This document shows positions 18,784-45,990 of a stretch of 64,000 nt of DNA, one piece after another. The notes under the pieces are model-generated. The model did no database searches and had not been told where the DNA came from. It saw only the letters and a program-made list of their open reading frames with translations. The stretch comes from Deltaproteobacteria bacterium. GTDB lineage: Bacteria; Bdellovibrionota_C; UBA2361; JAGFJO01. The first letter of the stretch is position 1. Each line of letters opens with the position of its first letter. Location: the NCBI GenBank assembly GCA_024102635.1, contig JAGFJO010000006.1, positions 45,909 through 109,908 of the forward strand. The letters are read 5' to 3'. Made by a program: the position numbers and the translations under genes.

Positions 18784-19140
18784 TTCTCCTCCCTGTAAAT
18801 AATTAGGGAAATAATAGGGGCCAGATGCCGTTTATATCTATGAACATTCATCCGGCTAAAGGCAGCTGAATTATAGCACTTTTACTTAAGTTATCCCAAA
18901 TCCGCCGGCCTCCGTTCTATACCGCCTTCCAAAAGTGCCCGTTTAGCGTCTAAGTCTCTTAAATGGCAGCTGTTTCTTCTTGCTGGTGAGATTTGAATCA
19001 GTCAGTTCTTCTGCATGCATAATCAATTTCCCCCTTGCCCGGCACACAAACCAAGCGCGGTATTCGGTTACGAGTGCCGAGCCGGGAGAGATGTCATATA
19101 CTATCGCGGCCTCAGATGGCGAAACTGCGCAGATTCAAAA

Positions 19141-19992
19141 ATGGCTTCATTAAAATTTAGATTTTCCTGGCGGGTCACTATCGTATGCGGAGTTTTGGCG
19201 GCCTTAATGGTGCGAGCATCCTTTTGGCAATGGGATAGGCATCTGCAAAAAAAAGCGTACATTGAGTCCATCGAAAACCGTTTACAACTTCCGGTTGTAG
19301 ACATACATGAGCTGTTCCCGGTGATTAATCGCGCGCCGGACGAAGTAGCTTACCGAAGGGTTACCATTACCGGCCGCTATGACTTCGAGCATGAAATGGT
19401 ACTACGAAACCGGCGGCATGATGAGATGCCGGGGGTTTTCGTAATAACACCGCTTAAGATTGACGGAACAGATAGCTACCTACTTGTTAGCCGGGGATTT
19501 CTGCCGCTAACCTATTCCTCTCCTGAAAAAAGGCGTCAGTTCCGCCACACGCCATCGGTAAGCATCGTTGCTCTCTTAAAAGAGGGGGCGAGCAGGAAGA
19601 TTTTCGCTCCGGCGGACCCGCCGGCGGGCGACGGGAATCCTTGGGTAGACGCTTGGCTCAGAGTTGATGTCGAAAACATGTCTAAACAACTCCCTTATCG
19701 GGCCCTGCCTATCTATGCCGAAGTGATGAGCGACGTACATGGAGAAGATGCTGCTCAAAAGATCGTTTCGTCAAAATCTGGGCGCGATGAGATCTTCAAC
19801 CTGAGCGGACGGGTTGATATCAGCCGCCCCCAACCGATTGAAAACATAAGCGACTATCCGATTCCGGTGTTCGATACCGTTGTTCCTCCCGGGCGTCATT
19901 TCGGTTACGTCTTTGAATGGGCGATTATGGCTTTGATTACATTGGGGATTGCAATTGTTTTGCAACTTCGGCGCCCCCTGCCGGCATCATAA
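19141..19992 (+). CDS. SURF1 family protein
   Basis: N-terminal TM followed by RASFWQWDRHLQKKAYIE (SURF1 LGxWQxxRxxWK-like), and a C-terminal TM. The track ORF starts at 19015; the internal Met at 19141 is preferred. Confidence 0.6.
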   Translation: MASLKFRFSWRVTIVCGVLAALMVRASFWQWDRHLQKKAYIESIENRLQLPVVDIHELFPVINRAPDEVAYRRVTITGRYDFEHEMVLRNRRHDEMPGVFVITPLKIDGTDSYLLVSRGFLPLTYSSPEKRRQFRHTPSVSIVALLKEGASRKIFAPADPPAGDGNPWVDAWLRVDVENMSKQLPYRALPIYAEVMSDVHGEDAAQKIVSSKSGRDEIFNLSGRVDISRPQPIENISDYPIPVFDTVVPPGRHFGYVFEWAIMALITLGIAIVLQLRRPLPAS

Positions 19993-29482: not shown

Positions 29483-29562
29483 GGCGTGGCCATTTTGTAC
29501 TATAGTGGAGAGCTAATTTAAACGAGTGAAGAGAGTTTAGGGAGAGAGGACAATATAAGGGC

Positions 29563-29640
29563 CTACGCCCAGATGGAACGCCAGCAGCGAGATAAAGCGC
29601 CAGCATGAATCAAAAGAGTCTTGCTAATAAGACCAATCAT
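29563..29640 (-). CDS. candidate trp leader peptide (25 aa, MIGLISKTLLIHAGALSRCWRSIWA)
   Basis: Small minus-strand ORF about 80 nt upstream of trpE with two Trp codons in its last five codons. No convincing terminator/antiterminator pair was identified. Confidence 0.2.
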   Translation of the reverse strand: MIGLISKTLLIHAGALSRCWRSIWA

Positions 29641-29884
29641 ATAAATAGACTACACGCTTACACTTTTGAAGTCAAAATGATGTTGCAAAACGCCTTCCCC
29701 TTAACCGGCGGCCTAAAGGGGCCCGACTTCGTTTCCGATAGTAACTGAGAAGCGTCTTCTGGACTGCTAGAGCCTATCCCGGAACGGCCCTCCATGGCTA
29801 TCTCGGCGAACGCTCCAAGCTTTGCGCGCGCGACGGGTCGCTTCATTCCGGCCGCAATCGGCCGGCTAATAATGGAGAGCATGA

Positions 29885-30364
29885 ATGGCTTGTTATCAAT
29901 GCGGTTCGCCTGAAGGAAATGAGGCTAGGCTATGTCCGGCGTGCACCGAGAAGCGGCTTGCTCAGAAGCGGCAAGACCGCGAAGCCGAGATGCGGCCGCG
30001 GCGTCCCGACACCTATGAGCCCGAGCTTCCTCCTGAACCTTATTCCCTCACTCAACGCGCGTTATTTGCCGGCGGCTCCTCGCTTTTTGCCGGGGCCGTT
30101 GTCTGGCTTTTCTTTTTTTCTGTTTACGGTCCCGGTTGGGGAATGTCACGCGCGGAGCATGCTTATAAAAAGTGCCTTCACGCCGTATCGGGCATGAACG
30201 CGGCTCCCAAAGACTCAGGAAATGAGGAGGTAGATAAAGCCTTCGCTGCGTTCGGAGAGTCTTTGATGCAGGGGCTAGGCACTGCAGTATGTGAAGGTTT
30301 GCGCGACGAATGCAGCAAGAACCCGGACGGAGAAGCGTGCAGCGCTATTGCACGCGCACTGTGA
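29885..30364 (+). CDS. zinc-ribbon membrane protein, hypothetical
   Basis: N-terminal CxxC...CxxC (CYQCGSPEGNEARLCPAC), one central TM, and a Cys-containing C-terminal domain. Confidence 0.4.
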   Translation: MACYQCGSPEGNEARLCPACTEKRLAQKRQDREAEMRPRRPDTYEPELPPEPYSLTQRALFAGGSSLFAGAVVWLFFFSVYGPGWGMSRAEHAYKKCLHAVSGMNAAPKDSGNEEVDKAFAAFGESLMQGLGTAVCEGLRDECSKNPDGEACSAIARAL

Positions 30365-30416
30365 AGTGAAGATTTCTCGCCCGCTTATCTCACCGGCTAA
30401 CGTCTAAGCGGATTGC

Positions 30417-30782
30417 TCACTGCTTATTGCCGTTATTCTTCTGGCCCTGCTTACCGGCTCCTTTATTGCCGTTGCCTTTTTCACCGGACTTTTTTCCTTT
30501 TCCGCCATTAGGCTTTGCCGCGTCCTTATCCTTGGGCTTTTTAGCCTTCTCCTCTTTCTGGCCTTTCTCTCCGGCAGGCTTTTCGCAACTGGACTTGCAT
30601 TTTGCTTTGACACACTTATTCACGCAATCAGGTGAGTCCGATTCGGTGCCTTCGCATTCTGAAGCGCACACCGATTTATGATCCTTGCGGCAGAACTCAC
30701 ACTCCTCGGATTTAGCCAGGACCGACGATGGAATCAGCATAAGAAGTAAAAGCAGGAGAAACGGGGCGGCTTTATTGATCAT
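30417..30782 (-). CDS. secreted small cysteine-rich protein with Lys/Gly-rich low-complexity tail
   Basis: Signal peptide (LLLLLLMLIPSSVLA|K). Twelve Cys occur in CxxC / Cx3C / Cx4C spacings within about 50 aa, followed by about 50 aa of K/G/N/E-rich disordered tail. Confidence 0.5.
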   Translation of the reverse strand: MINKAAPFLLLLLLMLIPSSVLAKSEECEFCRKDHKSVCASECEGTESDSPDCVNKCVKAKCKSSCEKPAGEKGQKEEKAKKPKDKDAAKPNGGKGKKSGEKGNGNKGAGKQGQKNNGNKQ

Positions 30783-30889
30783 AAAAATTCCTTTTAAGGC
30801 GTCATTGCTCTGAGAATCATCAAATCTTACAGTATTTTATAAAATTTTTTTTCAAATCAAGCAAATCCCTGCCGATTAGTACTAATGAG

Positions 30890-31258
30890 ATGCAATCATC
30901 AGCAAAACCTTACTATAACGCCAATGGTGGTTTCACGATAATAGAGCTGCTGGTTGTAATAGCAATCATAGGCGTTATCGCCGCAATCGCTTTTCCCGCC
31001 CATCTTCGCTACCGGGCCACAGCACTCGACAAACAAGCGCAACAGGCCCTACGAACCGTCGTTATCGCAGAAGAAGCCTATTTCATTGAGCACTCAACCT
31101 ATGTTTCATGTGATGAGACTACATGTGCGGCATTGCTTCCAAGTGTTGGCCAGATAGTGCCGAACGTCACGCTCACGTTTACCTCCACCGGGACAGCTTG
31201 TAGCGGGATCGCATCACACCGAAGCGGAACCGGCGCGATCTTTGAATGGTCGAGTTAA
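30890..31258 (+). CDS. type IV pilin / pseudopilin (prepilin-type N-terminal cleavage/methylation domain)
   Basis: GFTIIELLVVIAIIGVIAAIAFP class III signal motif. Confidence 0.75.
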   Translation: MQSSAKPYYNANGGFTIIELLVVIAIIGVIAAIAFPAHLRYRATALDKQAQQALRTVVIAEEAYFIEHSTYVSCDETTCAALLPSVGQIVPNVTLTFTSTGTACSGIASHRSGTGAIFEWSS

Positions 31259-31361
31259 ATTGAACGCCGATTGCACATTCGGACAGACTCCCATCTCAAA
31301 TTTGACTTTTAGTCATCCCCCTCATACCATCCACTGCTGCGCTTCGTGAAGTAAATCTAAA

Positions 31362-31991
31362 ATGCAGATTCCGCAAACCATCAGCGACAACCTGCCGCTG
31401 CTAATTCTTGTGCCGACCATCGCGGCGCTGATCGGTTGGGTAACCAACTTTCTGGCCGTAAAGATGATCTTTCGTCCGCGGCGCCCATTCCGTATTTTTG
31501 GGCTTAGAATTCATGGATTGATTCCGCGGCGGCAAAAGGAGCTGGCAATCAGCATCGGGGAAACCGTTCAACGCGACCTTATCTCGCATAAAGATGTACA
31601 AAAGGTTCTTAGCAGTTCAGACGTTGAGGCTCGGATACGCAAACTGGCAGGAGAGCAGATCGATCTTTTCATCTCTCGCATTATTTCCGAAAACCCGATG
31701 GTGGCTATGTTCATCCAAGGTTCGCTTGCGGCAACCATCAAGGAAAGGCTGGTAGACCAAATGTCAGCCATCGCTCCTACATTTCTTGATCAGGTAATGC
31801 AACAGGTAGAAGACAATCTCGACTTTAAGCACATTGTGCAGGAGAAGATCGAGGGTTTCGACCTCTCCAAACTGGAGGAGATAATTTACCGCATTTCGAG
31901 CAAGGAGCTCAAAATGATTGAGGTCCTTGGAGGAGTACTAGGGTTCATCGTGGGACTTGCTCAGGTAGCTTTGATGCTGGTTATGCAGTAG
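31362..31991 (+). CDS. DUF445 family membrane protein
   Basis: N-terminal GWVTNFLAVKMIFRPRRPFRIFGLRIHGLIPRRQKELA, typical of DUF445. There is a C-terminal TM. Confidence 0.6.
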   Translation: MQIPQTISDNLPLLILVPTIAALIGWVTNFLAVKMIFRPRRPFRIFGLRIHGLIPRRQKELAISIGETVQRDLISHKDVQKVLSSSDVEARIRKLAGEQIDLFISRIISENPMVAMFIQGSLAATIKERLVDQMSAIAPTFLDQVMQQVEDNLDFKHIVQEKIEGFDLSKLEEIIYRISSKELKMIEVLGGVLGFIVGLAQVALMLVMQ

Positions 31992-32121: not shown

Positions 32122-32910
32122 ATGTTGCAGCATCTCTGGAAACATAGAGAATTAACCTATCAGCTAACGAAGCGCGAAGTATTGCATCGATATCGCGGCT
32201 CGCTTCTCGGCGTCTTTTGGTCCTTCATTACCCCGCTTTTCATGCTGCTTGTATACACCTTCGTATTTGGAGTTATCTTCCGCTCCCGCTGGGGAGCCGG
32301 CACTACAAGCCAAACAGATTTTGCTTTGATACTCTTTTGCGGTCTCAGTATCTTCAGTATCTTTTCCGACATAATCGGAAGAGCTCCGGCAATTATCCTT
32401 AGCAATCCCAATTATGTGAAGAAGGTGGTTTTTCCGGTTGAGATTCTTCCCGTCACCATACTCGGCTCCAGCCTGATCCACGGAGCAATTAGCATATTAA
32501 TTCTGCTGGGAGCCGTGCTGATTATTCACGGTTCTCTGCCGCTCACGGTGCTCTTTCTTCCGATCGTCATCTTGCCGCTGCTACTGGTGTCAATCGGCCT
32601 GGCATGGTTTCTTGCCTCGTTGGGAGTTTATTTGCGGGATATAAATCAGATCGTACCTGTACTCGTTTCGGCCCTGATGTTTTTGAGCCCGATATTCTAT
32701 CCGGTATCGGTGATCCCCGAGAACCTACAGTTTCTATATTTCATAAATCCTGTGAGCTACGTGGTTGAAGACGCCAGGCAAGTGGTGATTTGGGGTAACG
32801 CCCCCAACTGGCTCTGGTGCATGATCGGAACGGGACTCGGCGCGGCAATTGCGGGGCTGGGATACGCCTGGTTCCAGAAGACTAAGAAGGGGTTTGCCGA
32901 TGTCATCTAA
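32122..32910 (+). CDS. wzm: polysaccharide ABC exporter permease (ABC-2, Wzm/KpsM type)
   Basis: Six TM segments. The first loop resembles the Wzm/TagG/KpsM families. Confidence 0.8.
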   Translation: MLQHLWKHRELTYQLTKREVLHRYRGSLLGVFWSFITPLFMLLVYTFVFGVIFRSRWGAGTTSQTDFALILFCGLSIFSIFSDIIGRAPAIILSNPNYVKKVVFPVEILPVTILGSSLIHGAISILILLGAVLIIHGSLPLTVLFLPIVILPLLLVSIGLAWFLASLGVYLRDINQIVPVLVSALMFLSPIFYPVSVIPENLQFLYFINPVSYVVEDARQVVIWGNAPNWLWCMIGTGLGAAIAGLGYAWFQKTKKGFADVI

Positions 32911-34270
32911 TTCGGCGCTGTCACTGAATTCCATCAGCAAGTGTTACCGCTTATTTGCAAAGCCTCAGGACAGGCTTAAGCAGATGATATTCCGCGGACG
33001 CCGCACTTACTTCCGGGAATTTTGGGCGCTAAAGGATGTGTCTTTTGAGGTTGCACCCGGCGAATGCATTGGAATAGTAGGAAGAAACGGCGCCGGAAAG
33101 TCAACCTTACTGCAGATTATTACCGGCGTAATTCCGCCGACAAGCGGGTCAGTACGCGTAGCAGGCAAAGTGGCTGCCCTTCTTGAACTAGGCACCGGAT
33201 TCAATCCTGAATTCACCGGCCGCGAGAATGTGTTTCTAAATGGGTCTATACTCGGCTTCACTCAGGAGCAAGTCCGCGAGAAATACGACGACATAGCAAG
33301 CTTTGCTGATATAGGAGCATTCATCGATCAGCCTGTCAAAACCTATTCAAGCGGTATGATGGTGCGGCTCGCTTTTGCGGTCGCAGCTCACGTAGATCCG
33401 GATATCCTTATTATCGACGAAGCTCTATCGGTCGGAGACGCTAAGTTTCAGGCTAAGTGTTTCAGGAAGTTTCAAGAGTTTAGGGACAATAGGAAAACAA
33501 TTCTTTTTGTTACGCATGCTGTTGAACAGGTTATACGCCATTGTGACAGGGCGCTGTTAATAGAAGACGGCTCACTAATAACGCAGGGAGAGCCGAAACA
33601 GGTAGCTAATACCTACTTGAGCTTGCTCTTCGACACCAAGCCCATAGATAAGCAAGAGAGCCAGGTTGATGCAAAGCCTCAAGGGAGCGAGGTTAACGGC
33701 CTACGTGCCGGCTCCAACGGAAGCGCTTCTGCATCTCAGCTTGATTTGTTTCTCTCAGGAGCGGCTGGAGACGATAGCTTTCCAAGTCGCCCAGGATACA
33801 ACCGAGCGGAGTATCGCTGGGGGTCACGGGAGGCGGAACTTGTAGACTATATGCTGTGCAACGACAAACAGTGGCACATAAACCATTTCTCTTCCGAAGA
33901 CAGGATCACATTGTACCTAAAGGTGCGCTTCAACCGTAATGTGGCCAAACCGATATACGGCCTTACACTGAAAACACCTGATGGAGTTACGATCTACGGC
34001 TCTAACTCCCGGGATTCGGCGGGAGACCGAATTTTCAGGCACCAGAGCAGCGGGGCGGTGGCTGTAGTGAGCTTTTCCCTGCGAGCCGGCTTGACTTCAG
34101 GTCATTACTTTATATCGCTCGGTGTCGCAGAAGAGGTTAATGACGAGGCCCTGCCGCTCGACAGGCGCTATGACGTTCTGGAGATATACATCACTAATCC
34201 CCACAAAGTTTATGGAATTGCTGATTTAGGCCTGAAGTTTTGCGAAATTGAGAGCCTGTCCCCCGAATAA
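32900..34270 (+). CDS. wzt: polysaccharide ABC exporter ATP-binding protein with C-terminal glycan-terminus-binding-like domain (Wzt)
   Basis: Walker A GRNGAGKST, signature YSSGMMVRLAFA, Walker B LIIDEALSVGD. After a Ser/Gly linker there is a beta-rich C-terminal domain of about 150 aa. Start taken at MSSNSALS, overlapping the wzm stop. Confidence 0.8.
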   Translation: MSSNSALSLNSISKCYRLFAKPQDRLKQMIFRGRRTYFREFWALKDVSFEVAPGECIGIVGRNGAGKSTLLQIITGVIPPTSGSVRVAGKVAALLELGTGFNPEFTGRENVFLNGSILGFTQEQVREKYDDIASFADIGAFIDQPVKTYSSGMMVRLAFAVAAHVDPDILIIDEALSVGDAKFQAKCFRKFQEFRDNRKTILFVTHAVEQVIRHCDRALLIEDGSLITQGEPKQVANTYLSLLFDTKPIDKQESQVDAKPQGSEVNGLRAGSNGSASASQLDLFLSGAAGDDSFPSRPGYNRAEYRWGSREAELVDYMLCNDKQWHINHFSSEDRITLYLKVRFNRNVAKPIYGLTLKTPDGVTIYGSNSRDSAGDRIFRHQSSGAVAVVSFSLRAGLTSGHYFISLGVAEEVNDEALPLDRRYDVLEIYITNPHKVYGIADLGLKFCEIESLSPE

Positions 34271-34379
34271 TCAGCGAGATCAGTGAGGTGGTTAAGAAAA
34301 TATCTCACCGTTCTTGCTGAATTCTTTGTTTAGTCCTTAAAGTATTTATTGCCGGCCTAAAACCCGCTATTTTCTTAGT

Positions 34380-35438
34380 GTGACGAGCATAGAGATAAGC
34401 AACCTATCAAAAAGCTTCGGCTCCGCACGGGTGCTCGCCAATGTCTCAATAAAGATCGCCAGTGGAGAGTTTTGCTGCCTTGTTGGACCGTCCGGTTGCG
34501 GCAAGACGACTTTACTGCGGCTGGTTGCCGGATTCATCACGGGCGAAAGCGGCGATATTCTTTTCGACGGCAAGTCGGTGAAGGACCTGCCGGTGGCCGA
34601 TCGAGAGATCGGCTTTGTATTCCAAAACTATGCGTTATGGCCGCACATGACCGCTTATCAGAACGTGCTCTTCGGCCTGGAAGCTCGCAAGGTTTTGAAA
34701 AACGAACGAGCACCACGGGCTCACGCTGCTCTAACCTCCGTGCAGATGGATTTATTCAGAAACCGGTACCCGCATGAGCTTTCGGGCGGGCAGCAGCAGC
34801 GAGTAGCTATCGCAAGAGCACTAGCGCTCAAGCCGAAGCTGCTGCTGTTGGATGAACCTTTATCCAATTTGGACACTAAGCTTAGGGAGGAACTTAGAGG
34901 CGTTATCTCTGATTTGCAGCGTGAGCATTCGATTACCACCATTTATGTAACTCACGATCAACATGATGCTTTGGTTTTGGCGGACAAACTGGCGGTGCTG
35001 AGTGAGGGGCGGATAATTCAAAGCGGTACTCCTGAAAGCGTTTATGAAAGCCCTCTCAGCGCTGCAGTTGCCGGATTCATAGGCAGCGCCAATTTTATCC
35101 AGGGCGAGATAGTTTCCATTACGCCGCTCAAGGTTCGCTGCGCCTTCGGTGTGCTCGATGTTGCCAGCTCAATTAGCGATGCAAAGATTGGACACGAAGT
35201 AAAGCTGGCTATCAGACCGTCTTACGTTTCGCTTACTCCCACCGGCGAATGCAGTAATCGTCTCGAGGGTATCGTAATGGAAAATCGCTACTTCGGGCCC
35301 ACCAGAAGAATCGTACTTGAAAGCCAGGCCGGCGCTCTTGTGGCTGAATGTCCTGCCGAACAGGCCGCGCATATACAAACTGGGCAAAAGATATCGATTG
35401 CCCTTCCGCCCCACCGCCTAGTGGCTTTAGCGGCATGA
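34380..35438 (+). CDS. ABC importer ATP-binding protein with C-terminal TOBE domain (Fe3+/thiamine/polyamine type)
   Basis: GTG start. Walker A GPSGCGKTT, signature LSGGQQQRVAIARAL, Walker B LLLDEPLSNLD. Confidence 0.85.
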   Translation: MTSIEISNLSKSFGSARVLANVSIKIASGEFCCLVGPSGCGKTTLLRLVAGFITGESGDILFDGKSVKDLPVADREIGFVFQNYALWPHMTAYQNVLFGLEARKVLKNERAPRAHAALTSVQMDLFRNRYPHELSGGQQQRVAIARALALKPKLLLLDEPLSNLDTKLREELRGVISDLQREHSITTIYVTHDQHDALVLADKLAVLSEGRIIQSGTPESVYESPLSAAVAGFIGSANFIQGEIVSITPLKVRCAFGVLDVASSISDAKIGHEVKLAIRPSYVSLTPTGECSNRLEGIVMENRYFGPTRRIVLESQAGALVAECPAEQAAHIQTGQKISIALPPHRLVALAA

Positions 35439-37096
35439 AAATTTCGCATGCCCTGATAATCCTTGTTTGCGCCGCGTTTCTGGCAGCCTTCCTGTTCTAT
35501 CCGCTTATCTACTCTCTTCGGGCAGCCTTTATATCGGGAGGAGATATATCCTTTGAGCCCTTCGGATTGCTGCTGCAAGATCCGGAGTTCTATCATCTGC
35601 TTTTCAATTCGATAAACCTTGCATTTCTCTCTACCTTCTTGGCGTGCTTGCTGGCACTCCCGCTGGCAGTCGTAATGGAGCGCGTCTCCCTTCCGAGAAA
35701 AAAGATATTTCATATCATTTTATTGTTTCCCTTAATTCTTCCGCCGTTTGTCGGAGCAATCGGCATTCGCAAACTGTTTGCTCGATTTGGGCCGATTAAT
35801 CTCTCCCTCATGCACTCCGACATCATAAGCGAGCCGATTAATTGGCTAACAGAGTCCGGGCTATCGGGAATAGCAATCGTCGAGGCGCTACATTTGTACC
35901 CAATTGTGTACTTGAACTTGCGCGCGTCATTACGGGCGGCCGATCCCGCCCTCGATGAAGCGGCCATAAGTGTAGGAGCCGGCAAGCTGCGCCGCTTCTT
36001 CAGAATCACGGTACCTATGCTTGCACCCGGTTTTTTCTCGGGAGCGGTGCTTGCTTGGATTTGGGCCTTTACCGATCTCGGCACTCCTCTTGTTTTCGAC
36101 TATCAACAGCTACTCCCAGCGAGGCTCTTTCAGATCGCTGACGAGATACACTCCAACCCGCTTGGATTCTGTATTGTCATTATGATGCTTTTGGTAATTG
36201 CTGCCATGCTGCTCCTGTCAAAGGCGGCAGTTGGGATCGAACTCTACCGGCCTTTAGCAAATTCAGGGCGACCGGCACAGCAAGCTTCGCTATCACCACT
36301 GTTACAAGGAGTGGTCATTTTGCTGCTCTCGGCCGCATCGCTCATTGTCATTCTACCGCACGCGGCGGTAATACTTACATCTTTAGCCGATAAGTGGTTC
36401 ATTACAGTAATTCCTGAGGAGCTTGGGCTCGAAGCATATGTCAGTGTGGTGTCTCATCCCTTAACGGCTAGCAGCATTAGAAATAGTCTTTTCCTTAGTA
36501 GCGCAAGCGCCGTTCTCGACTTCATTCTTGGAATATGTCTCGCCTGGCTCATAACCAGAAGAAGGCGTAAATGGACAGGGTGGCTCGACGCCGCAGCGAT
36601 GGCCCCACTGGCAGTACCCGGTATAATTATTTCTTTTGGATACCTGGGCGGCTTCTCTAATACCTCTCTCGATCCGCGCCTTTCTCCCTTCCCGCTTCTA
36701 ATTATCGGATATGCGGTGCGGCGCCTGCCATTCATGGTTCGTTCGGCGGCGGCAGGCTTTCAGCAGGCCTCCCCTCAGCTCGAGGAAGCCGCCTATAGCG
36801 TTGGCGCTTCTGCCGTTATGACGGCAAGACGCGTAACGTTTCCTATCATGAAGGCACATCTTCTGACCGGAGCGATTCTTTGCTTTTGTTTTGCGATGCT
36901 GGAAGTGAGTGAGAGCTTGATACTTGCGGTCCAAGAGCATCACTATCCGATGACGAAAGCCATGTACTCGCTCCTCTCCCGGCCCGACGGCGAGAGCACT
37001 GCCAGCGCGCTTGGAGTGATAGGCATGCTCGTGTTAGCGGCCGGAATGCTTGCTGCGGCAAGGCTAACTGCCAAGAAGGAAAAGATGGAGCCATGA
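35435..37096 (+). CDS. ABC importer permease, duplicated (two MetI-like domains; FbpB/ThiP type)
   Basis: About 12 TM segments with two EAA-like loops. Start chosen at MKISHALI, whose ATG overlaps the ATPase TGA. Confidence 0.8.
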   Translation: MKISHALIILVCAAFLAAFLFYPLIYSLRAAFISGGDISFEPFGLLLQDPEFYHLLFNSINLAFLSTFLACLLALPLAVVMERVSLPRKKIFHIILLFPLILPPFVGAIGIRKLFARFGPINLSLMHSDIISEPINWLTESGLSGIAIVEALHLYPIVYLNLRASLRAADPALDEAAISVGAGKLRRFFRITVPMLAPGFFSGAVLAWIWAFTDLGTPLVFDYQQLLPARLFQIADEIHSNPLGFCIVIMMLLVIAAMLLLSKAAVGIELYRPLANSGRPAQQASLSPLLQGVVILLLSAASLIVILPHAAVILTSLADKWFITVIPEELGLEAYVSVVSHPLTASSIRNSLFLSSASAVLDFILGICLAWLITRRRRKWTGWLDAAAMAPLAVPGIIISFGYLGGFSNTSLDPRLSPFPLLIIGYAVRRLPFMVRSAAAGFQQASPQLEEAAYSVGASAVMTARRVTFPIMKAHLLTGAILCFCFAMLEVSESLILAVQEHHYPMTKAMYSLLSRPDGESTASALGVIGMLVLAAGMLAAARLTAKKEKMEP

Positions 37097-38436
37097 AGAG
37101 CTTTATATTGCTTTTGTGTATCTTGGTGTTTGGTCTCCAGCCTAGCCATGCCGAAGACAAGTTGATAATCGTCTCACCCCACTGGGAAGGAATCCGTTAC
37201 GAAATGGGGAGGGCTTTCAATGAGCACCGCCGAAAGATCGGAGCACCGTCCGTAAAGATTAGCTGGCTGGACGTTGGTGGTACTTCAGAGATACTGCGAT
37301 ATCTCCAATCGGAGTACATGCAGACGCCGGAGGGCGTGCAGATTGATATGCTTTTCGGCGGAGGAATCGAACCGTTCTTGCAGCTCAAAGCCAGCGGCTT
37401 ACTGGAGAGACCTGGGCTGCATGGTGAGGAGTTGGCGGGAGTAGCGCACATGCTGGGAGGAGTTCCTCTTCATGACCCTGATGGTTACTACTATGCTCCG
37501 GTGATATCGGCATTCGGCTTGCTCTGCAATCTCGAGGTACTGAGGACAATCGGCGTTTCGATCCCTGCGAAATGGAGCGATCTGACGGGTGCCGAATACC
37601 GCGGCTGGCTCAGTTCCGCCGACCCGCGTAAGAGCGGTAGTACTCATATGTTCTATGAGATATTGCTGCAAGCTTACGGCTGGGAGCAGGGATGGAAAAT
37701 GATTTTTAATATTGCCGGCAACATCAACTCGTTTTCCTCTCATTCGTCTCAGGTTACGCAGGATGTTATTGGCGGAGAAACAGCATGTGGTTTCGCCATA
37801 GACTCGCAAGCCTGGGCGCAGATCGAACGTTTCGGCTCGGACAAACTTGCTTTCATAGTACCTTCTGATGCCAGTTTCGCTAACGGAGATAGCGCCGCCA
37901 TACTGAAGGGAGCACCGAACTATCAGCTGGCAAGCGATTTTCTCTCGTTCCTCCTTTCCGAAGCGGCTCAAAAGGTCTGGATGTATCGGCCCACATCACC
38001 GGGAGGACCGTCGAAGTATGAACTGGCAAGACTGGGGGTAAGGCCCTCTCTGTACTCTGATCTGCAGCAACAGTCATCCATTTTACTTAACCCATTTTCG
38101 TGGGATAGTAGCCTGCCTTATGATCACAAACTTGGCGCCGCCCGCTGGGGGCTTCTTAACGAGCTGTTAGGGACCTTTGTGCTGACCGCCAAGCACTACA
38201 ATCTAGCTTACTCGGGAAAGTTGCCGGTAAATGAAGAGCAGGCAATGAGTCTCATAAGCTCCGGAGATTGGCACGATCAGGGCCTGCGCCGCAATATCGT
38301 CGCCGGTTGGCGATCCGGCATTTTTAGAGAGATTGATGAAGGTTCGTTGTTTTGGCTCAATGCCGCTCCAACAATAACATTCATTCTATTATGTGTTCTT
38401 GCCATAGTGGTTAGGGCTCGCCGTTTTGGCCGTTAG
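37093..38436 (+). CDS. ABC substrate-binding protein (family 1, Fe3+-type) with an unusual C-terminal TM segment
   Basis: Signal peptide, then a periplasmic binding fold. The last about 30 aa are hydrophobic (AAPTITFILLCVLAIVV) followed by RARRFGR. Confidence 0.65.
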   Translation: MKSFILLLCILVFGLQPSHAEDKLIIVSPHWEGIRYEMGRAFNEHRRKIGAPSVKISWLDVGGTSEILRYLQSEYMQTPEGVQIDMLFGGGIEPFLQLKASGLLERPGLHGEELAGVAHMLGGVPLHDPDGYYYAPVISAFGLLCNLEVLRTIGVSIPAKWSDLTGAEYRGWLSSADPRKSGSTHMFYEILLQAYGWEQGWKMIFNIAGNINSFSSHSSQVTQDVIGGETACGFAIDSQAWAQIERFGSDKLAFIVPSDASFANGDSAAILKGAPNYQLASDFLSFLLSEAAQKVWMYRPTSPGGPSKYELARLGVRPSLYSDLQQQSSILLNPFSWDSSLPYDHKLGAARWGLLNELLGTFVLTAKHYNLAYSGKLPVNEEQAMSLISSGDWHDQGLRRNIVAGWRSGIFREIDEGSLFWLNAAPTITFILLCVLAIVVRARRFGR

Positions 38437-38449
38437 CTTCACAAAAAAA

Positions 38450-41101
38450 TCATATCCCGATCTCTCCACCGCTTGCACGCTTCAAGTAACCCTTTGCCAA
38501 GATAAAGCATAATACAGCCAGTGTTATTAGTGACACGGTCTTGGTGACGTAAAGAAACGAGGGCTGGAATGCCAGCAGCACTGTGCTTTCACCTTCGATT
38601 AAAGGCACTCCCAAAAATGCATAATTAAAGATGTAGGTAGGAACTGGTTCGCCGTTGACGTAAGCCCTCCATGCTGGATCATAGGGCTGCAACAGCACAA
38701 GATACGAGCTTCTTTCAGTGTGCACGGATATCTCATAGACGCCCTCGCCGGCACGGCGAAGATCCAGCTTCAAACTGTCTCCTTTTGAAGGTCCTTCGGG
38801 TAAAAGCGCGCGTTGATCCTCGATTAGCACCGCCTCCTCAAAGTCCATGTTCTCAAGGCGTTTGATTGCATTTGAAGGGTGCGGTTCATACACCGACGAT
38901 GCGGCAAGAAATGCCGGCCGAAACTGGAGCGATCGTTTAAGCACAGACACGCCTCCCGATAACACGACTTTCCACTCTTTTCCGGCTATCAACTCAGCGA
39001 CCGAGCGGGGGGCGACAATATGAGTCACTCTTAGAAGATCTAATAGAGGTGAATTATATTCAAAACTAGCCGATGAAAAGCTATTACCAGAAGACTTAAG
39101 CCGAGCATCGAGTGCCTCGACAATCTCCCGCAATCTGGCGGGAAGCGGATTCGCAGGATCAATAGTGGATATGCCGTACGCTTTTGCAGCGTGAACTGGA
39201 AACACGCCGTCCAAACTGACGAGCCTAGAACGGCCCTGCCCGTCACTCTTGAGAGCCGAGATCAGTTCGGTCTGGGGGAAATTGAGTGCATTCGGCAGGT
39301 AAGGAATCAAGGGGCTGTTTACGACTAGGAGATCCAGAAACGAAGCAAGGACTATCATCTTACCGGAAATACCTCCCCCTTCCCTGGCAAAGGAAAAAAA
39401 CCCGATCAATAGAAGAGATGCTAGGATAAGCGCCACTTGTACCATGAAACGAAATCCCGACTGCGGGTGATCGCTATCCATTTGAAGAGCCGTGGGATCA
39501 ACAAAAAAAGCAGTGGACGGCAAGACCGCCAGCAATAAGATTAAAATCGGAAACAAGATTTGGCGCTTTTCGGCACTCCCATTTAGCACTGCATCAAGGC
39601 CAGCACCCGATCCTATCGCCAACAAAAAGGTAAGGAGTCCAGCGATGAGCTGAGAATCCCCCAATCCGAGAATTGAGATGACACGCGAGTTTCTCGCTCC
39701 ACCAACATCAAACGCAAGCATGCAAATGATTGAGAACGCAGCCAAGAAAGAGATAGAAAGCCGCCGAGGCCGAGATAGAAGCGCTGATAAGAAAAGTACG
39801 AGGGGAATAATTCCAATGTATATGGTATTGACCTGCGGTCCGCCGTCCAGCTGAGGGAACACCGGCATGGCCGGAGAGAAGTTGAGCTGTAGAGACTCCC
39901 CGGTAAAAGCAGCAATGTTCGCTCCCGCATGCACCGCCGGCCCTAGGGAAGGAACGATCGCTGCCGCCAGCAGCAACAAGGCCCCACACAGGCCGGCAAA
40001 CAAATAGCCTGCATGCCTAATACGCGCCGCCCAAAGCTTCTGCGCCGCCTGCAGCCGCCACAAAGCAAATACTGCCGAACACAGCAGCATGCCCCACCCG
40101 AAGCGGGGCACACAAAGTGAGAGATAAACCGCCAGGGTGAGCAGCGGAACTAAATAGACCGTGCCCCGCTTGGTGCACCGCTCAATCAAGAAAAGAAGCA
40201 TCGGCAGGAAGCAGATCCCTGTGAGCGCAAGGTTAAACAAAGTAGCGCATGAAAATGCAAAGGCTGTTGCCGCCAGAAGCGATGCCACATGCGAAGCTCG
40301 CCAGGCGCGGGCGAGTAGATAGGTGAAAACCGCCGCCATTAGCGCCTTTGCAAAAAATGCCGCCGTCAAGCCCCAACCCGGGCCGAGCAAGACCGCCAGC
40401 CATGCATCCGGTGAAAAGGAGTGCCTCATTAGCTGGTCCGGGTATCCCGATAAGAAGAGCGCAGTATCAGCAAGAGTAAATACCCCGGCCTCGGTAACTT
40501 CGTTGAAGAAATGATAGTAGCTCGACCAAAGCTGCGACAACTCATCGGTCACTAGGGGACCGGCAACCGCTTGATGCACACCCTGTGCCGCGAATGCCGG
40601 GAACCTATAAATATATGAAAGAGGACTTATGGTTTGCCCTTGAAATACCGGATGAAAGAATAGCGCCGCAAAAAGAAAAATCGCCCAAAACGCCCATGGT
40701 GAAGGTCTAACAGGCAGCACATGGCGCCATAGCTGCATTTCGAAAATGCAGGCCGCTATAGTAAAAAAGGCAACTAGCCAAGCGCATCCTTCCAACAGCG
40801 ACTCGAATGGGATCAACAACGCCGCTATAAATGCTGCGCTCAGGAAACGGCGCTCATAAAAAACCTCAAGAAAAGAAGCGACGCCGCGGCGGGGCGAGAC
40901 AACATGCAGCAGTCCGAAGGCATAAAGGGCGGCTGTTCCGATTGGAATTAAGCATAGCACCATCAACAAAAGCAATCGCTGGATCAGATCGGGAGTTCCA
41001 ATAACCGGTGCCGGCAGCAAAACAGATATGGCTCTAATGGCCCAAGGAAGCCCGCACAAGAAATAGAGCAGAGAGGCGGACGGAGAAGATCTTTTGTCCA
41101 T
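38450..41101 (-). CDS. large polytopic membrane protein, YfhO-like / GT-C fold glycosyltransferase candidate
   Basis: 883 aa. At least 13 TM helices span the first ~560 residues, followed by a ~300-aa soluble C-terminal domain. Architecture is that of the YfhO family. Assignment is by topology only. Confidence 0.5.
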   Translation of the reverse strand: MDKRSSPSASLLYFLCGLPWAIRAISVLLPAPVIGTPDLIQRLLLLMVLCLIPIGTAALYAFGLLHVVSPRRGVASFLEVFYERRFLSAAFIAALLIPFESLLEGCAWLVAFFTIAACIFEMQLWRHVLPVRPSPWAFWAIFLFAALFFHPVFQGQTISPLSYIYRFPAFAAQGVHQAVAGPLVTDELSQLWSSYYHFFNEVTEAGVFTLADTALFLSGYPDQLMRHSFSPDAWLAVLLGPGWGLTAAFFAKALMAAVFTYLLARAWRASHVASLLAATAFAFSCATLFNLALTGICFLPMLLFLIERCTKRGTVYLVPLLTLAVYLSLCVPRFGWGMLLCSAVFALWRLQAAQKLWAARIRHAGYLFAGLCGALLLLAAAIVPSLGPAVHAGANIAAFTGESLQLNFSPAMPVFPQLDGGPQVNTIYIGIIPLVLFLSALLSRPRRLSISFLAAFSIICMLAFDVGGARNSRVISILGLGDSQLIAGLLTFLLAIGSGAGLDAVLNGSAEKRQILFPILILLLAVLPSTAFFVDPTALQMDSDHPQSGFRFMVQVALILASLLLIGFFSFAREGGGISGKMIVLASFLDLLVVNSPLIPYLPNALNFPQTELISALKSDGQGRSRLVSLDGVFPVHAAKAYGISTIDPANPLPARLREIVEALDARLKSSGNSFSSASFEYNSPLLDLLRVTHIVAPRSVAELIAGKEWKVVLSGGVSVLKRSLQFRPAFLAASSVYEPHPSNAIKRLENMDFEEAVLIEDQRALLPEGPSKGDSLKLDLRRAGEGVYEISVHTERSSYLVLLQPYDPAWRAYVNGEPVPTYIFNYAFLGVPLIEGESTVLLAFQPSFLYVTKTVSLITLAVLCFILAKGYLKRASGGEIGI

Positions 41102-41256
41102 GTTATTCCGTTCAATCTACCGGCGTTGAAGCGATCTATCAAGTTAGGAAACTGCCGATCTAACTCGGCAAGACCATCCATCGTGTCTCGCTCAGGGGCC
41201 GCGAGAAACACCTGTTCTTGTTTGACAAACGCCTTACCTCAGGCTACTGATTATGC

Positions 41257-42030
41257 ATGCCTGCCCCTAACGCTTCAAAGCACTTGCCATTAGTAAGCAT
41301 AATAGTAAGAACGGTCGACCGTCCCTACTACCTGCGCGAGTGCCTCACGAGTTTGCTCGTGCAGGACTACCCTAATATTGAAATCATCATCGTAAACGAC
41401 GGGGGAGAGAGCGTGAGTGCCCTGGTCGAGGAATTGGGCCTCCCGTTCCGGCACCAACTTATCGAGCTGAAGGAGAATCGAGGCCGATCGGAGTGTGGAA
41501 ATATCGGTCTTGATCATGCGAGCGGAAAGTACATCGGCTTTATCGATGATGATGACATCTTCTACTCTTTTCACATTTCGACCCTTGTATATAAGCTGAT
41601 CAACTCCAACTACAAGGTGGTCTATTCCGACGGACTGCAAGCCCGGCAGATAAAATGCCCATTCAACGATAAGATGTACTCGACGGTGGAACTTACCTTG
41701 GTGTTATCGGAAGAGTTCGACTTCCAGGATCTTCTTACGCGCAACTACATTCCGATTCTTTGCGCCCTTTTTGACCGATGCTGCATTGAAGAAGGCATTA
41801 GGTTCGACACCTCAATGGACGTACTGGAAGACTGGGATTTTTGGATACGTATAGCAAGGCACTACGACTTTGCCCATTTGAAGCAGATCACCTGTGAATA
41901 CCGCTATCGCTCCGACGGCTCGAATACGGTAGGCCAGCTGGATCATGTTTGGGAATGGTGCCGCAATCACATAAAACATAAGTATTCCATCTTAAGAAAG
42001 GGGCGGGTTAATATGGAGCTGGCAAGCTAG
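41257..42030 (+). CDS. glycosyltransferase family 2
   Basis: VSIIVRTVDRPYYLRECLTSLLVQDYPNIEIIIVNDGG and a DDD motif. Confidence 0.8.
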   Translation: MPAPNASKHLPLVSIIVRTVDRPYYLRECLTSLLVQDYPNIEIIIVNDGGESVSALVEELGLPFRHQLIELKENRGRSECGNIGLDHASGKYIGFIDDDDIFYSFHISTLVYKLINSNYKVVYSDGLQARQIKCPFNDKMYSTVELTLVLSEEFDFQDLLTRNYIPILCALFDRCCIEEGIRFDTSMDVLEDWDFWIRIARHYDFAHLKQITCEYRYRSDGSNTVGQLDHVWEWCRNHIKHKYSILRKGRVNMELAS

Positions 42031-42039
42031 GGAAGGACT

Positions 42040-42840
42040 ATGGGGGATGCTAAAGTTGCATTTGACTTCAACAAGATGACGGTCGAAGAGCAGGAAGCTG
42101 CTATTCAGAAGGTTGTTCAACTGCTTGCAGGTAAGTCGAGCGTTCTATGCATCGGAGCTTCCGCATTAAGGCTTGCCGAGACGCTGGCGGCCTACGAGTC
42201 GCGCCGAGTAACGTTACTCACTGACAACAGCGACTTCATATCCACCGATCAAAGCAGTTCGGTGCGTATCCTAGTTGAGCCGCTTGCTTCAGACAGCTTT
42301 CTATCACGCTTTACGCCCGATGAATTTGATGCGGTAGTGCTAACCGATCCTCCACTTAGCAGCAACACCGTCACCAGCAAGCTCCCGTCGCTACTGACCT
42401 TCTTCACCGGGGCATTGGTCGTATCTATTCCGGAGCTAATCACCGAGGAGCAGGCAATCATAAGAGAGCAGGCACTAGAGATTGAGAGACTTAAGAAGGT
42501 TCTGCGGGTGCGGGAGGAAACGATCTCTTGGTACTCGAAGCGCTTAAGGGAGCATCTAGTTAGTCATTACAAGCTTGAGGGCACACATGCAGAGCGCAAG
42601 CGCGAACATGAATTAAGCAGTGAACTTGAACGAAAGAACCAAGAGTACTCTGCGCTGCTCGCTGACCGCGATCGCATCAAGGACTATGCCGACCGGCTGT
42701 CGCGATATTCCGCCGATCATCTGCCTTTGATTCTGCGCTATCCTGTCAAGGCTCTCATTGCTCTGTGGGCATACGGCCCGCTAGAGCCGATTCGAATCAT
42801 CAGAAAAAAAAAATCTATAAAAAGCCAGCCCGGCAGTTAG
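42040..42840 (+). CDS. hypothetical protein: Rossmann-like N-terminal domain plus C-terminal coiled coil
   Basis: The N-terminus has degenerate MTase-like motifs (VLCIGASA; DAVVLTDPP). Residues ~140-235 are heptad-rich coiled coil. The last codons run through an A10 tract. Confidence 0.45.
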   Translation: MGDAKVAFDFNKMTVEEQEAAIQKVVQLLAGKSSVLCIGASALRLAETLAAYESRRVTLLTDNSDFISTDQSSSVRILVEPLASDSFLSRFTPDEFDAVVLTDPPLSSNTVTSKLPSLLTFFTGALVVSIPELITEEQAIIREQALEIERLKKVLRVREETISWYSKRLREHLVSHYKLEGTHAERKREHELSSELERKNQEYSALLADRDRIKDYADRLSRYSADHLPLILRYPVKALIALWAYGPLEPIRIIRKKKSIKSQPGS

Positions 42841-43784: not shown

Positions 43785-43814
43785 ACAGCTAAAGCAGCGA
43801 GTCTAAACACAGTC

Positions 43815-45925: not shown

Positions 45926-45990
45926 CCCAGAACCTTTGTGAGTAGCGTAATGGCCCGCGATGGCTCCTTTGATATCCAGAGAGGGAGAAT

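What the first reader, a model, noticed from the sequence alone, without database searches (positions are those of the whole stretch)
29885..31991. Cluster of unexplained envelope proteins: 12-Cys secreted protein with Lys/Gly tail, solitary type IV pilin, zinc-ribbon membrane protein, DUF445
Between the trp operon and wzm/wzt lie four small genes with no obvious pathway context. The secreted protein (30417-30782, minus) has CxxC, Cx3C and Cx4C pairs packed into about 50 residues, then a highly basic low-complexity K/G/N tail. Three readings are possible from this: a metallothionein-like metal binder, a disulfide-knotted secreted effector, or a nucleic-acid or polyanion-binding adhesin. It is transcribed divergently from a lone prepilin-type pilin (30890-31258) across a very AT-rich 107-bp promoter region. 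No pilus assembly genes are nearby.
Basis: partly seen in the sequence, partly recalled or inferred. Interest (0 to 1): 0.5.

Follow-up and report, generated by a model that had tools for sequence, protein, structure and literature searches.

The report
Small secreted 8-cysteine hairpin protein family
The four small genes are real but are not one system: an ordinary pilus subunit gene and a sugar-export accessory gene lie beside a rare, unnamed family of secreted eight-cysteine mini-proteins, which often sits next to a zinc-ribbon membrane protein and has no known function.

Summary
All four ORFs exist at the stated coordinates. The secreted protein has 8 cysteines, not 12.

- **Cys-rich protein.** It is a real gene. 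An exhaustive search found 18 distant relatives of 80-145 aa. All fit signal peptide + C-x2-C-x2-DH-x3-C-x2-EC-x(6-12)-C-x3-C-x4-C-x3-C + a variable, mostly lysine-rich, disordered tail. Nothing matches in Pfam, NCBIfam, PDB sequences or solved folds. AlphaFold2 gives a confident helix-loop-helix, with a central twin-Cx3C pattern like disulfide-stapled hairpins.
- **Its neighbours.** In 4 of 9 lineages it is convergent with a homologue of the zinc-ribbon membrane protein. A pilin sits beside it in only 2.
- **Pilin.** It is a conventional PilA-type type IVa major pilin. Its 41-50% identical relatives sit in pilB-pilC-pilR-pilA or pilD-pilR loci.
- **DUF445.** It travels with wzm/wzt in a second lineage, inside a large glycan-synthesis region.

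Best reading: a mosaic neighbourhood that holds one new lineage-restricted mini-protein family. That family is probably a disulfide-stapled periplasmic or surface hairpin with a conserved D-H/E/K patch. Its chemistry (disulfides or bound metal) and its function remain untested. Interest is modest.

The parts
29885..30364 (+). Zinc-ribbon / single-pass membrane protein, 159 aa. It has an N-terminal C-x2-C-x10-C-x2-C motif, a TM segment at residues 59-80, and a C-terminal helical domain of about 75 aa with four conserved Cys (97, 136, 143, 152), presumably periplasmic.
   Evidence: ORF. Cys positions, hydropathy. Homologues at 37-43% identity lie convergent to Cys-rich genes in L010, L013/L014 and L018. 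The single-sequence AF2 model has helices 55-81, 89-103, 114-145 and 150-158 at low to moderate confidence. NCBI calls it a hypothetical protein, MCO6429323.1.
30417..30782 (-). Secreted 8-Cys mini-protein, 121 aa. Signal peptide residues 1-23 (30714-30782). 8-Cys helix-loop-helix core residues 28-66 (30585-30701). Disordered Lys/Gly/Asn tail residues 67-121 (30420-30584).
   Evidence: 18 homologues found. C28, C31, D34, H35, C39, E42, C43, C53, C57, K61, C62 and C66 are invariant. All 19 members fit the motif. AF2 gives helices 24-43 and 51-66 with pLDDT 81-95, and the tail at about 50.
30783..30889 (.). AT-rich divergent intergenic region, 107 bp at 29.9% GC, between the Cys-rich gene and the pilin gene.
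   Evidence: No sigma-54 consensus was found and only weak sigma-70-like matches.
30890..31258 (+). PilA-type type IVa prepilin, 122 aa. The leader is 14 residues and ends in G14, followed by F15 (+1) and E19 (+5).
   Evidence: Pfam and NCBIfam hits. Homologues at 41-50% identity over about 89% of the length, located in pil loci. Alignment A5. The profile hits solved Geobacter, Myxococcus and Thermus major pilins.
31362..31991 (+). DUF445 family membrane protein, 209 aa, with hydrophobic segments at both ends. It is the conserved upstream neighbour of wzm.
   Evidence: Pfam 6.5e-31. 55% identical homologue directly upstream of wzm in L013/L014. Hydropathy.
32122..32910 (+). Wzm, the ABC-2 permease of a glycan exporter.
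   Evidence: PF01061 at 1.2e-32. 62% identical to the L013 homologue.
32849..34270 (+). Wzt, the ABC ATPase with a Wzt_C glycan-binding domain. The true start is probably the ATG at 32900.
   Evidence: PF00005 and PF14524. The alignment to the L014 Wzt begins at residue 18.

Best explanation
The interval is a mosaic neighbourhood, not a single system.

1. The Cys-rich ORF founds a rare family, restricted to MAGs labelled Deltaproteobacteria or Bdellovibrionales. Its members are Sec-exported mini-proteins with three parts: a cleaved signal peptide, a 36-42-residue helix-loop-helix 'head' with eight invariant cysteines, and a 16-66-residue disordered hydrophilic tail that is usually lysine-rich.
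   - Inferred mechanism: after export, the central twin Cx3C pairs (C39/C43 and C53/C57) staple the two antiparallel helices by disulfides. This is how twin-Cx3C and alpha-hairpinin hairpins are built.
   - The outer C28-x2-C31 and C62-x3-C66 pairs either add two more disulfides or form a four-thiolate site at the open end of the hairpin.
   - The invariant D34-H35, E42 and K61 form the functional patch, which binds either a partner or a metal.
   - The cationic tail tethers the head to anionic envelope polymers.
   - The likeliest partner is the presumed periplasmic three-helix, 4-Cys domain of the adjacent zinc-ribbon membrane protein.
2. The pilin is a conventional PilA-type T4a major pilin encoded away from its assembly genes.
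3. DUF445 belongs to the wzm/wzt glycan-export unit.

Shown here: gene reality, family, motif, predicted fold, synteny. Inferred only: disulfides, tail function, partner.
For: - **Family and motif.** The exhaustive phmmer search gave 18 representatives with E from 3e-11 to 7.5e-4. Eight Cys plus D34, H35, E42 and K61 are invariant. All 19 members fit one regular expression.
- **Fold.** AF2 gives helices 24-43 and 51-66. Mean pLDDT per 10-residue block across residues 31-70 is 95, 88, 94 and 81.
- **Export.** A hydrophobic N-terminus at residues 1-26 precedes the ...VLA|K site. There is no twin-arginine and no lipobox, by direct reading.
- **Scaffold versus functional patch.** P0028 and P0031 carry a second module with the same eight-Cys spacing but without DH, E or K. 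This suggests the Cys form the scaffold and D-H/E/K form a separable functional patch.
- **Partner.** The zinc-ribbon TM homologue is convergent with the Cys-rich gene in the window, L010, L013/L014 and L018, at only 37-43% identity. Synteny is lost beyond it: trpE in the window, RtcB in L013.
- **Tail.** Net charge is +2 or above in 15 of 19 members.
- **Pilin.**
- **DUF445-wzm-wzt.**
Against: - No coordinates were available, so S-S geometry was not measured.
- No experiment bears on oxidation state.
- Five of nine lineages lack the zinc-ribbon neighbour (L008, L011, L015, L019; L020 is cut at the gene end). Convergent genes are also not co-transcribed.
- The lineages that share synteny may simply be related by descent.
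- Invariant D, H and E are just as typical of a metal site.
- Three tails are net acidic.
- C62 and C66 fall on the opposite helical face from C53 and C57 unless helix 2 kinks. DSSP does show a break at residue 62.
Confidence: 0.45

Rival explanations
1. A periplasmic metal (Cu/Zn) binder or chaperone. The central disulfides hold a hairpin, while C28, C31, C62 and C66, with or without H35, D34 and E42, coordinate a metal. This would be functionally Cox17-, Sco- or metallothionein-like, possibly serving oxidase or cytochrome biogenesis.
For: - D34, H35 and E42 are invariant next to Cys.
- One homologue follows COX1-COX3-COX4 (L020).
- One homologue follows CcmH and a PNPOx/DUF2470 protein with a 22-bp gap (L019).
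- SURF1 lies 11 kb away in the window.
Against: - The protein has a Sec rather than a Tat signal and enters a compartment that normally oxidises cysteines.
- The second modules in P0028 and P0031 keep all Cys but drop D, H and E.
- Only 2 of 9 contexts touch respiration.
- There is no metallothionein, Csp, Sco or Cox17 hit in Pfam or PDB.
Confidence: 0.25
2. A secreted cationic effector, adhesin or antimicrobial peptide. The stapled hairpin resembles plant alpha-hairpinins, and its poly-Lys tail would bind LPS, nucleic acid or other polyanions on prey or on a matrix.
For: - The window protein's tail has a net charge of +10 to +11 with 17 Lys.
- 15 of 19 tails have a net charge of +2 or above.
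- The central CX3C-Xn-CX3C motif equals the alpha-hairpinin motif (PMC11591084).
- The relatives are labelled Bdellovibrionales.
Against: - Tail charge runs from -6 to +10, and the tail sequence is not conserved.
- The inter-helix loop is variable.
- There is no export or immunity genes nearby.
- The Foldseek hit to an alpha-hairpinin (7uv3) has E = 9.3, which is not significant.
Confidence: 0.15
3. A pilus accessory or regulator co-regulated with the divergent pilin. This would be analogous to the small secreted CxxC protein Bd0108, which links type IV pilus status to growth in Bdellovibrio.
For: - The pilin and Cys-rich genes are divergent neighbours in the window and in L010, despite only about 40% identity between the two Cys-rich proteins.
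- Bd0108 is a 101-aa secreted protein with a CxxC disulfide (PMC4267844).
Against: - Six of eight lineages with an informative upstream side have no pilin there.
- L013 has DUF445 in that place.
- Bd0108 has two Cys and is disordered. It does not have an 8-Cys hairpin.
Confidence: 0.1
4. A spurious ORF: a low-complexity reading-frame artefact.
For: - Strong compositional skew across the tail (AT skew -0.46).
- The word-index search found nothing.
Against: - 18 homologues share 12 invariant positions.
- A canonical signal peptide is present.
- An AAGGA Shine-Dalgarno-like motif sits about 6 nt upstream of the start.
- The NCBI protein accessions of the flanking genes skip one number between them.
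Confidence: 0.02

Closest known systems
Plant alpha-hairpinins (CX3C-Xn-CX3C antimicrobial or trypsin-inhibitor peptides)
   Same: The central four Cys give CX3C-X(6-12)-CX3C. A helix-loop-helix is predicted. The protein is small, secreted and often cationic.
   Different: This family is bacterial. It has eight invariant Cys plus invariant DH, E and K, and a long disordered tail. There is no sequence or significant fold match. By the published criteria (PMC11591084), three or more extra Cys outside the core motif is an exclusion.
Mitochondrial intermembrane-space twin-Cx3C / twin-Cx9C hairpins (small Tims, Cox17/CHCH)
   Same: An antiparallel helical hairpin with paired Cys motifs, located in the oxidising compartment that corresponds to the periplasm. 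Like Cox17, it has extra Cys beyond the staple that could bind metal.
   Different: No detectable homology. The spacer is 6-12 residues rather than 11-16. Export is by a Sec signal peptide rather than Mia40 trapping. Only 2 of 9 gene contexts touch respiration.
Bd0108 of Bdellovibrio bacteriovorus (hit locus)
   Same: A small secreted protein with a CxxC and a disordered C-terminus, from a related phylum and linked to type IV pili.
   Different: Bd0108 has only two Cys and is intrinsically disordered (PMC4267844). This family has a confidently predicted 8-Cys hairpin. Its pilin adjacency is not general.
PilA-type type IVa major pilins (Myxococcus PilA, Geobacter PilA-N, Thermus PilA4)
   Same: Leader ending in G|F with E at +5, a hydrophobic N-terminal helix, and a small globular domain. 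The pilin is 41-50% identical to pilins inside pilB-pilC-pilR-pilA loci.
   Different: The leader is longer (14 residues). The C-terminal Cys-containing tail of its relatives is missing. It is encoded between unrelated genes, with no assembly genes in the 64 kb.
Bacterial metallothioneins (SmtA/BmtA) and Csp copper-storage proteins
   Same: High Cys density, with His, Asp and Glu near the Cys.
   Different: No family hit. A Sec signal peptide is present, whereas metallothioneins are cytosolic and Csp1 is exported by Tat. The fold is a two-helix hairpin, not a zinc-finger-like fold or a four-helix bundle.

Membership tests
Type IV pilin (class III signal peptide, T4a major pilin) | Leader peptide ending in Gly, followed by Phe/Met at +1 and Glu at +5 | tested here: met
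   ...NANGG|FTIIELL: G14, F15, E19. N_methyl PF07963 at 4e-08 and TIGR02532 at 1.5e-07, both above their cut-offs. The leader is 14 residues, longer than the 5-7 of its closest relatives.
Type IV pilin (class III signal peptide, T4a major pilin) | Hydrophobic N-terminal alpha-helix of about 20-25 residues, plus a globular domain homologous to known major pilins | tested here: met
   Hydrophobic segment at residues 9-41. Full-length alignment with 12 relatives. The profile hits solved major pilins: 9egp at 9e-27, 8tj2 at 1.4e-18, and 6xxd at 3.7e-18 over positions 8-108.
Type IV pilin (class III signal peptide, T4a major pilin) | C-terminal disulfide-bonded D-region | tested here: inconclusive
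   Three Cys (74, 79, 104). C74-x4-C79 is conserved in the clade. The distal Cys pair seen in P0002 and P0003 is absent.
Type IV pilin (class III signal peptide, T4a major pilin) | Cognate prepilin peptidase, assembly ATPase and platform protein in the genome | not testable with these tools
   None among the scanned ORFs of the 64-kb window. The rest of the MAG could not be read. Relatives have PilB/PilC/PilR or PilD/PilR adjacent.
alpha-hairpinin | CX3C-X(4-20)-CX3C motif in a helix-loop-helix | tested here: met
   C39-x3-C43-x9-C53-x3-C57. The spacer is 6-12 across the family. AF2 predicts a hairpin.
alpha-hairpinin | 4-6 Cys only, of plant origin, with homology or a fold match to known members | tested here: not met
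   Eight invariant Cys, from bacterial MAGs. The best Foldseek hit to an alpha-hairpinin has E = 9.3. No profile hit in the PDB.
alpha-hairpinin | Two interhelical disulfides | not testable with these tools
   Model coordinates are not exposed, and there is no biochemical data.
Bacterial metallothionein / Csp copper storage | Sequence-family match, and cytosolic or Tat-exported | tested here: not met
   No Pfam or NCBIfam hit for any of the 19 members. Sec-type signal peptide without a twin-arginine.
DUF445 (PF04286) | Score above the Pfam gathering threshold | tested here: met
   109 bits against a cut-off of 33.8, E = 6.5e-31. The match comes in two stretches of a 368-position profile, so this is a short form.
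Wzm/Wzt O-polysaccharide ABC exporter | An ABC-2 permease plus an ABC ATPase carrying a Wzt_C domain | tested here: met
   PF01061 at 1.2e-32, PF00005 at 5.3e-24 and PF14524 at 2.3e-25.
Zinc ribbon (DZR, PF12773/PF18912) | Score above the gathering threshold | tested here: not met
   13.1 and 10.1 bits against cut-offs of about 27. The C-x2-C-x10-C-x2-C motif is visible and is conserved in L013 and L018, so the label is descriptive only.
Bd0108-like hit-locus protein | Homology to Bd0108 | not tested
The published features (two Cys, intrinsically disordered) differ from an 8-Cys folded core.

The most novel reading that the evidence does not exclude
The 8-Cys hairpin family is a bacterial periplasmic counterpart, by convergence or ancient relationship, of the mitochondrial intermembrane-space twin-CxnC hairpins. 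It would be a disulfide-stapled mini-protein whose outer Cys/His site relays copper or redox equivalents, or which acts as the ligand of a new zinc-ribbon transmembrane sensor that carries the signal across the inner membrane.
Probability: 0.12. Interest if true: 0.6.

Novelty: new variant of a known kind. Interest (0 to 1): 0.3.

Why it matters
If the model holds, this defines an unannotated family of bacterial secreted mini-proteins. It comes with a sharply defined motif and a candidate membrane partner, in a poorly studied lineage related to Bdellovibrio. Stapled helical hairpins are well known from plants and from the mitochondrial intermembrane space. A bacterial example with eight invariant Cys would be a small but clean addition, and it would be an easy target for expression, mass spectrometry and NMR.

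The pilin, DUF445 and wzm/wzt components are ordinary. For genome annotation, the main lesson is that these four genes should not be read as one functional cluster.

Tried and rejected
Searches that found nothing:
- Word-index homology search with the Cys-rich protein: nothing. With profile A1 it returned only 4 proteins on contigs of 1.2 kb or less.
- Genome-collection scans with the single protein and with alignment A2: pattern matches only, none confirmed. The family therefore seems absent or very rare among GTDB species representatives.
- Metagenome scan with the single protein: nothing. With the zinc-ribbon alignment it returned one locus, L018.
- hhalign of the Cys-rich family against the neighbouring Aq_678-like 12-Cys lipoprotein: no similarity.
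- PADLOC: no hit for any of the four. PHROGs: no hit for three, and only generic pilin matches for the pilin. There is no sign of a defence or phage origin.
- Rfam, tRNA, tandem-repeat and inverted-repeat searches: nothing.
- A sigma-54 promoter in front of the pilin: none.

Ideas tested and dropped:
- PilG/PilH/PilI-like identity for DUF445/wzm/wzt. This was rejected. There is no homology between DUF445 and the proteins downstream of pilA in L002, L004 and L005, and only generic ABC similarity between Wzt and their ATPases.
- A RiPP-precursor reading. This was rejected because the N-terminus is a standard Sec signal and the radical-SAM neighbours are housekeeping genes (BioB, Mqn).

Could not be run as planned:
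The single-sequence model is only low to moderate confidence, so it was not used for a fold search.
Full report
**Observation**

The four ORFs are present exactly as listed:
- a 159-aa protein at 29885-30364 (+)
- a 121-aa protein at 30417-30782 (-)
- a 122-aa protein at 30890-31258 (+)
- a 209-aa protein at 31362-31991 (+)

The 107-bp region between the second and third is 29.9% GC in a background of about 50%. Upstream lies a complete trpE-G-D-C-F-B-A operon. Downstream lie wzm (ABC2_membrane) and wzt (ABC_tran plus Wzt_C).

One factual error needs correcting. The secreted protein has eight cysteines, not twelve: C28, 31, 39, 43, 53, 57, 62 and 66. Its tail of 54-55 residues has 17 Lys, 12 Gly and 6 Asn, with a net charge of +10 to +11 depending on where it is cut.

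The window comes from an NCBI MAG contig of 222,705 bp labelled 'Deltaproteobacteria bacterium'. There the flanking genes are annotated as hypothetical protein, prepilin-type protein and DUF445 family protein.

**The Cys-rich protein is a real gene and founds a small unnamed family**

Pfam, NCBIfam, PADLOC and PHROGs give nothing. The word-index search and the single-protein scans of genome and metagenome collections also found nothing.

The exhaustive phmmer search of 1.84 billion cluster representatives found 18 proteins of 80-145 aa, with E from 3e-11 to 7.5e-4. In their alignment, C28, C31, D34, H35, C39, E42, C43, C53, C57, K61, C62 and C66 are invariant. All 19 sequences fit C-x2-C-x2-DH-x3-C-x2-EC-x(6-12)-C-x3-C-x4-C-x3-C. 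This core is preceded by a signal peptide, with only 2-5 mature residues before the first Cys.

The tails behave differently from the core:
- They are 16-66 residues long, with no conserved sequence.
- Net charge runs from -6 to +10. It is +2 or above in 15 of 19 members and +6 or above in 7 of 19.
- Two members (P0028, P0031) carry a second eight-Cys module with the same spacing, but without DH, E or K. This suggests the cysteines are the scaffold and the four polar invariants are a separable functional patch.

None of the 19 members hits any Pfam family. A profile of the family hits no PDB sequence even at E = 10. The precomputed Pfam column is also empty for every homologue whose contig I read. 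The only taxonomic labels available are 'Deltaproteobacteria bacterium' (the window) and 'Bdellovibrionales bacterium' (P0017, GCA_020434485.1).

**Predicted structure**

With the 19-sequence alignment, AlphaFold2 gives helix 24-43, a loop, and helix 51-61/63-66. Mean pLDDT per 10-residue block is 95, 88, 94 and 81 over residues 31-70. The signal peptide and tail score about 50-60.

On a helical wheel (my reading), C28, C31, H35, V38, C39, E42 and C43 share one face of helix 1. C53 and C57 face them from helix 2. C62 and C66 would rotate away unless helix 2 kinks, and DSSP does break the helix at residue 62.

**Genomic context of the family**

I read nine lineages.

| Locus | Arrangement |
|---|---|
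| Window | ZnR-TM -> \| <- Cys-rich \| -> pilin -> DUF445 -> wzm -> wzt |
| L010 (P0016) | pilin <- \| -> Cys-rich \| <- ZnR-TM. Same as the window, at 40-43% identity |
| L013/L014 (P0025) | wzt <- 590 aa <- wzm <- DUF445 \| -> Cys-rich -> Aq_678-like 12-Cys lipoprotein \| <- ZnR-TM. No pilin |
| L018 | Cys-rich -> Aq_678-like \| <- ZnR-TM |
| L008 | RNase-III-like / GT2 |
| L011 | after bioF-D-A, before HDOD |
| L015 | after two flagellins |
| L019 | after CcmH and a PNPOx/DUF2470 protein |
| L020 | after COX1-COX3-COX4 and an acidic 271-aa protein |

An all-against-all comparison of neighbours found four shared families only:
- ZnR-TM, in 4 lineages
- Aq_678-like, in 2
- DUF445/Wzm/Wzt, in 2
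- pilin, in 2

Between the window and L013, identities are 55% for DUF445, 62% for Wzm, 63% for Wzt and 37% for ZnR-TM. Synteny ends just beyond ZnR-TM, with trpE in the window and RtcB in L013.

The most persistent neighbour is therefore the zinc-ribbon membrane protein. The pilin is an occasional one. The respiration-related contexts (2 of 9) are a lead for a copper or redox role, not evidence of one.

**The zinc-ribbon membrane protein**

It has an N-terminal C-x2-C-x10-C-x2-C motif that is conserved in L013 and L018. One hydrophobic segment spans residues 59-80. An invariant YGPGxG motif follows it, and then a C-terminal domain with four invariant Cys (97, 136, 143, 152).

The Pfam DZR hits are below threshold. 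No solved relative exists. The single-sequence AF2 model suggests a TM helix and three C-terminal helices, at pLDDT of about 60-80.

Its architecture is a cytoplasmic zinc ribbon, a single TM helix and a small Cys-containing domain that is presumably periplasmic. That is compatible with a transmembrane receptor or anchor whose outer domain could bind the hairpin. This is inference only.

**The pilin**

It carries the prepilin signature: G14|F15 with E19 at +5. It aligns over its whole length with 12 relatives at 38-50% identity.

Those relatives sit in classical type IVa loci:
- PilB-PilC-sigma54 activator-pilin-TPR protein-ABC ATPase-ABC permease in L004 and L005, the latter a Bdellovibrionota MAG.
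- Pilin near PilR and the prepilin peptidase in L002.

The family profile hits solved major pilins of Geobacter (9e-27), Myxococcus (1.4e-18) and Thermus PilA4 (3.7e-18, nearly full length).

The genes downstream of the pilin in the window are not the PilG/H/I-like genes of the relatives. The window contains a single prepilin motif. No T4a assembly gene turned up among the ORFs scanned. A lone RcpC/CpaB-like (Tad-type) gene lies at 3569-4522.

The simplest reading is an ordinary PilA-type major pilin gene encoded away from its machinery. Whether the MAG has that machinery could not be checked.

**DUF445 and wzm/wzt**

DUF445 (PF04286, 6.5e-31) directly precedes wzm both in the window and in L013/L014. 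It has hydrophobic segments at both ends.

The window around it is rich in glycan-synthesis genes:
- GT90
- Wzy_C
- YfhO
- several GT2 and GT4 glycosyltransferases
- a methyltransferase
- a DegT aminotransferase

DUF445 is best filed as an accessory membrane protein of that export unit, not as part of a pilin or Cys-protein cluster.

**Mechanism and rivals**

The best-supported model is as follows. The protein is exported by Sec and its signal peptide is cleaved. A hairpin head forms, stapled by at least the two central disulfides and probably by four. A conserved D-H/E/K patch binds a partner, and a usually cationic disordered tail holds the head on anionic envelope material. The adjacent zinc-ribbon protein is the leading partner candidate. 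Confidence is 0.45.

The rivals are:
- a periplasmic Cu/Zn binder or chaperone (0.25)
- a cationic secreted effector or adhesin (0.15)
- a pilus accessory analogous to Bd0108 (0.10; Bd0108 has only two Cys and is disordered, PMC4267844)
- a spurious ORF (0.02)

**Novelty and verdict**

The pilin, DUF445 and wzm/wzt are ordinary. The Cys-rich family is new at the sequence-family level and very rare: 18 clusters at 50% identity among about 15 billion proteins. At the level of architecture it is a variant of a known kind, the Cys-stapled helical hairpin. Nothing here is mechanistically surprising yet. Interest is 0.3.

Noticed in passing
window 3569-4522 (-): A lone RcpC/CpaB-like (Flp/Tad pilus assembly, PF16976 at 1.6e-21, plus a SAF domain) gene. 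It sits between a GHMP kinase and MetH, with no other Tad genes seen nearby.
   Followed up: no
window 1277-2317, 15170-16633, 32122-47064, 61106-63863: The window is dominated by envelope-glycan genes: GT90, a Wzy_C O-antigen ligase-like protein, Wzm/Wzt with Wzt_C, YfhO, several GT2 and GT4 glycosyltransferases, a methyltransferase, a DegT aminotransferase and a GFO/hexapeptide transferase. A pilin embedded in such a region and ending in ...WSS raises the untested idea of pilin O-glycosylation.
   Followed up: partly
window 32849-32910: The listed TTG start of wzt (32849) overlaps wzm by 62 nt. The alignment to the L014 Wzt begins at residue 18, so the ATG at 32900 is the likelier start.
   Followed up: partly
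L013 5052-5444 (+); L018 537-938 (-): An Aq_678-like (PF27284 in the precomputed annotation) 12-Cys lipoprotein with several Cx3C pairs lies between the Cys-rich gene and the zinc-ribbon gene in two lineages and is absent from the window. hhalign finds no similarity to the 8-Cys family.
   Followed up: partly
L013 3988-4746 (-): The called DUF445 start (252 aa) abuts the Cys-rich gene with no intergenic gap. The alignment to the window protein begins at residue 53, so an internal Met (about M41) is probably the real start. That would leave a divergent promoter region of about 120 bp.
   Followed up: partly
P0028 and P0031 (family members): These two carry a tandem second 8-Cys module with identical spacing that lacks the invariant DH, E and K of the first module.
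   Followed up: partly
L004 536-8632; L005 4386-13329: The pilin relatives lie in a pilB-pilC-sigma54 activator-pilA-TPR/HEAT-like protein-ABC ATPase-ABC permease arrangement. From memory, this resembles the Myxococcus pilA-pilG-pilH-pilI order.
   Followed up: partly
window 29483-29884: A 402-bp gap lies between the trpE start and the zinc-ribbon gene, with no Rfam hit and only short unsupported ORFs. It may hold a trp leader or regulatory region.
   Followed up: no
L020 3-2827; L019 3881-5307: Two family members lie directly downstream of respiration or cytochrome-biogenesis genes: COX1-COX3-COX4 in L020, and CcmH plus a PNPOx/DUF2470 protein in L019. SURF1 lies at window 19015-19992.
   Followed up: partly
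window 34380-38436: An ABC importer follows wzt. It consists of an ATPase with a TOBE domain, a 582-aa fused permease and a solute-binding protein.
   Followed up: no
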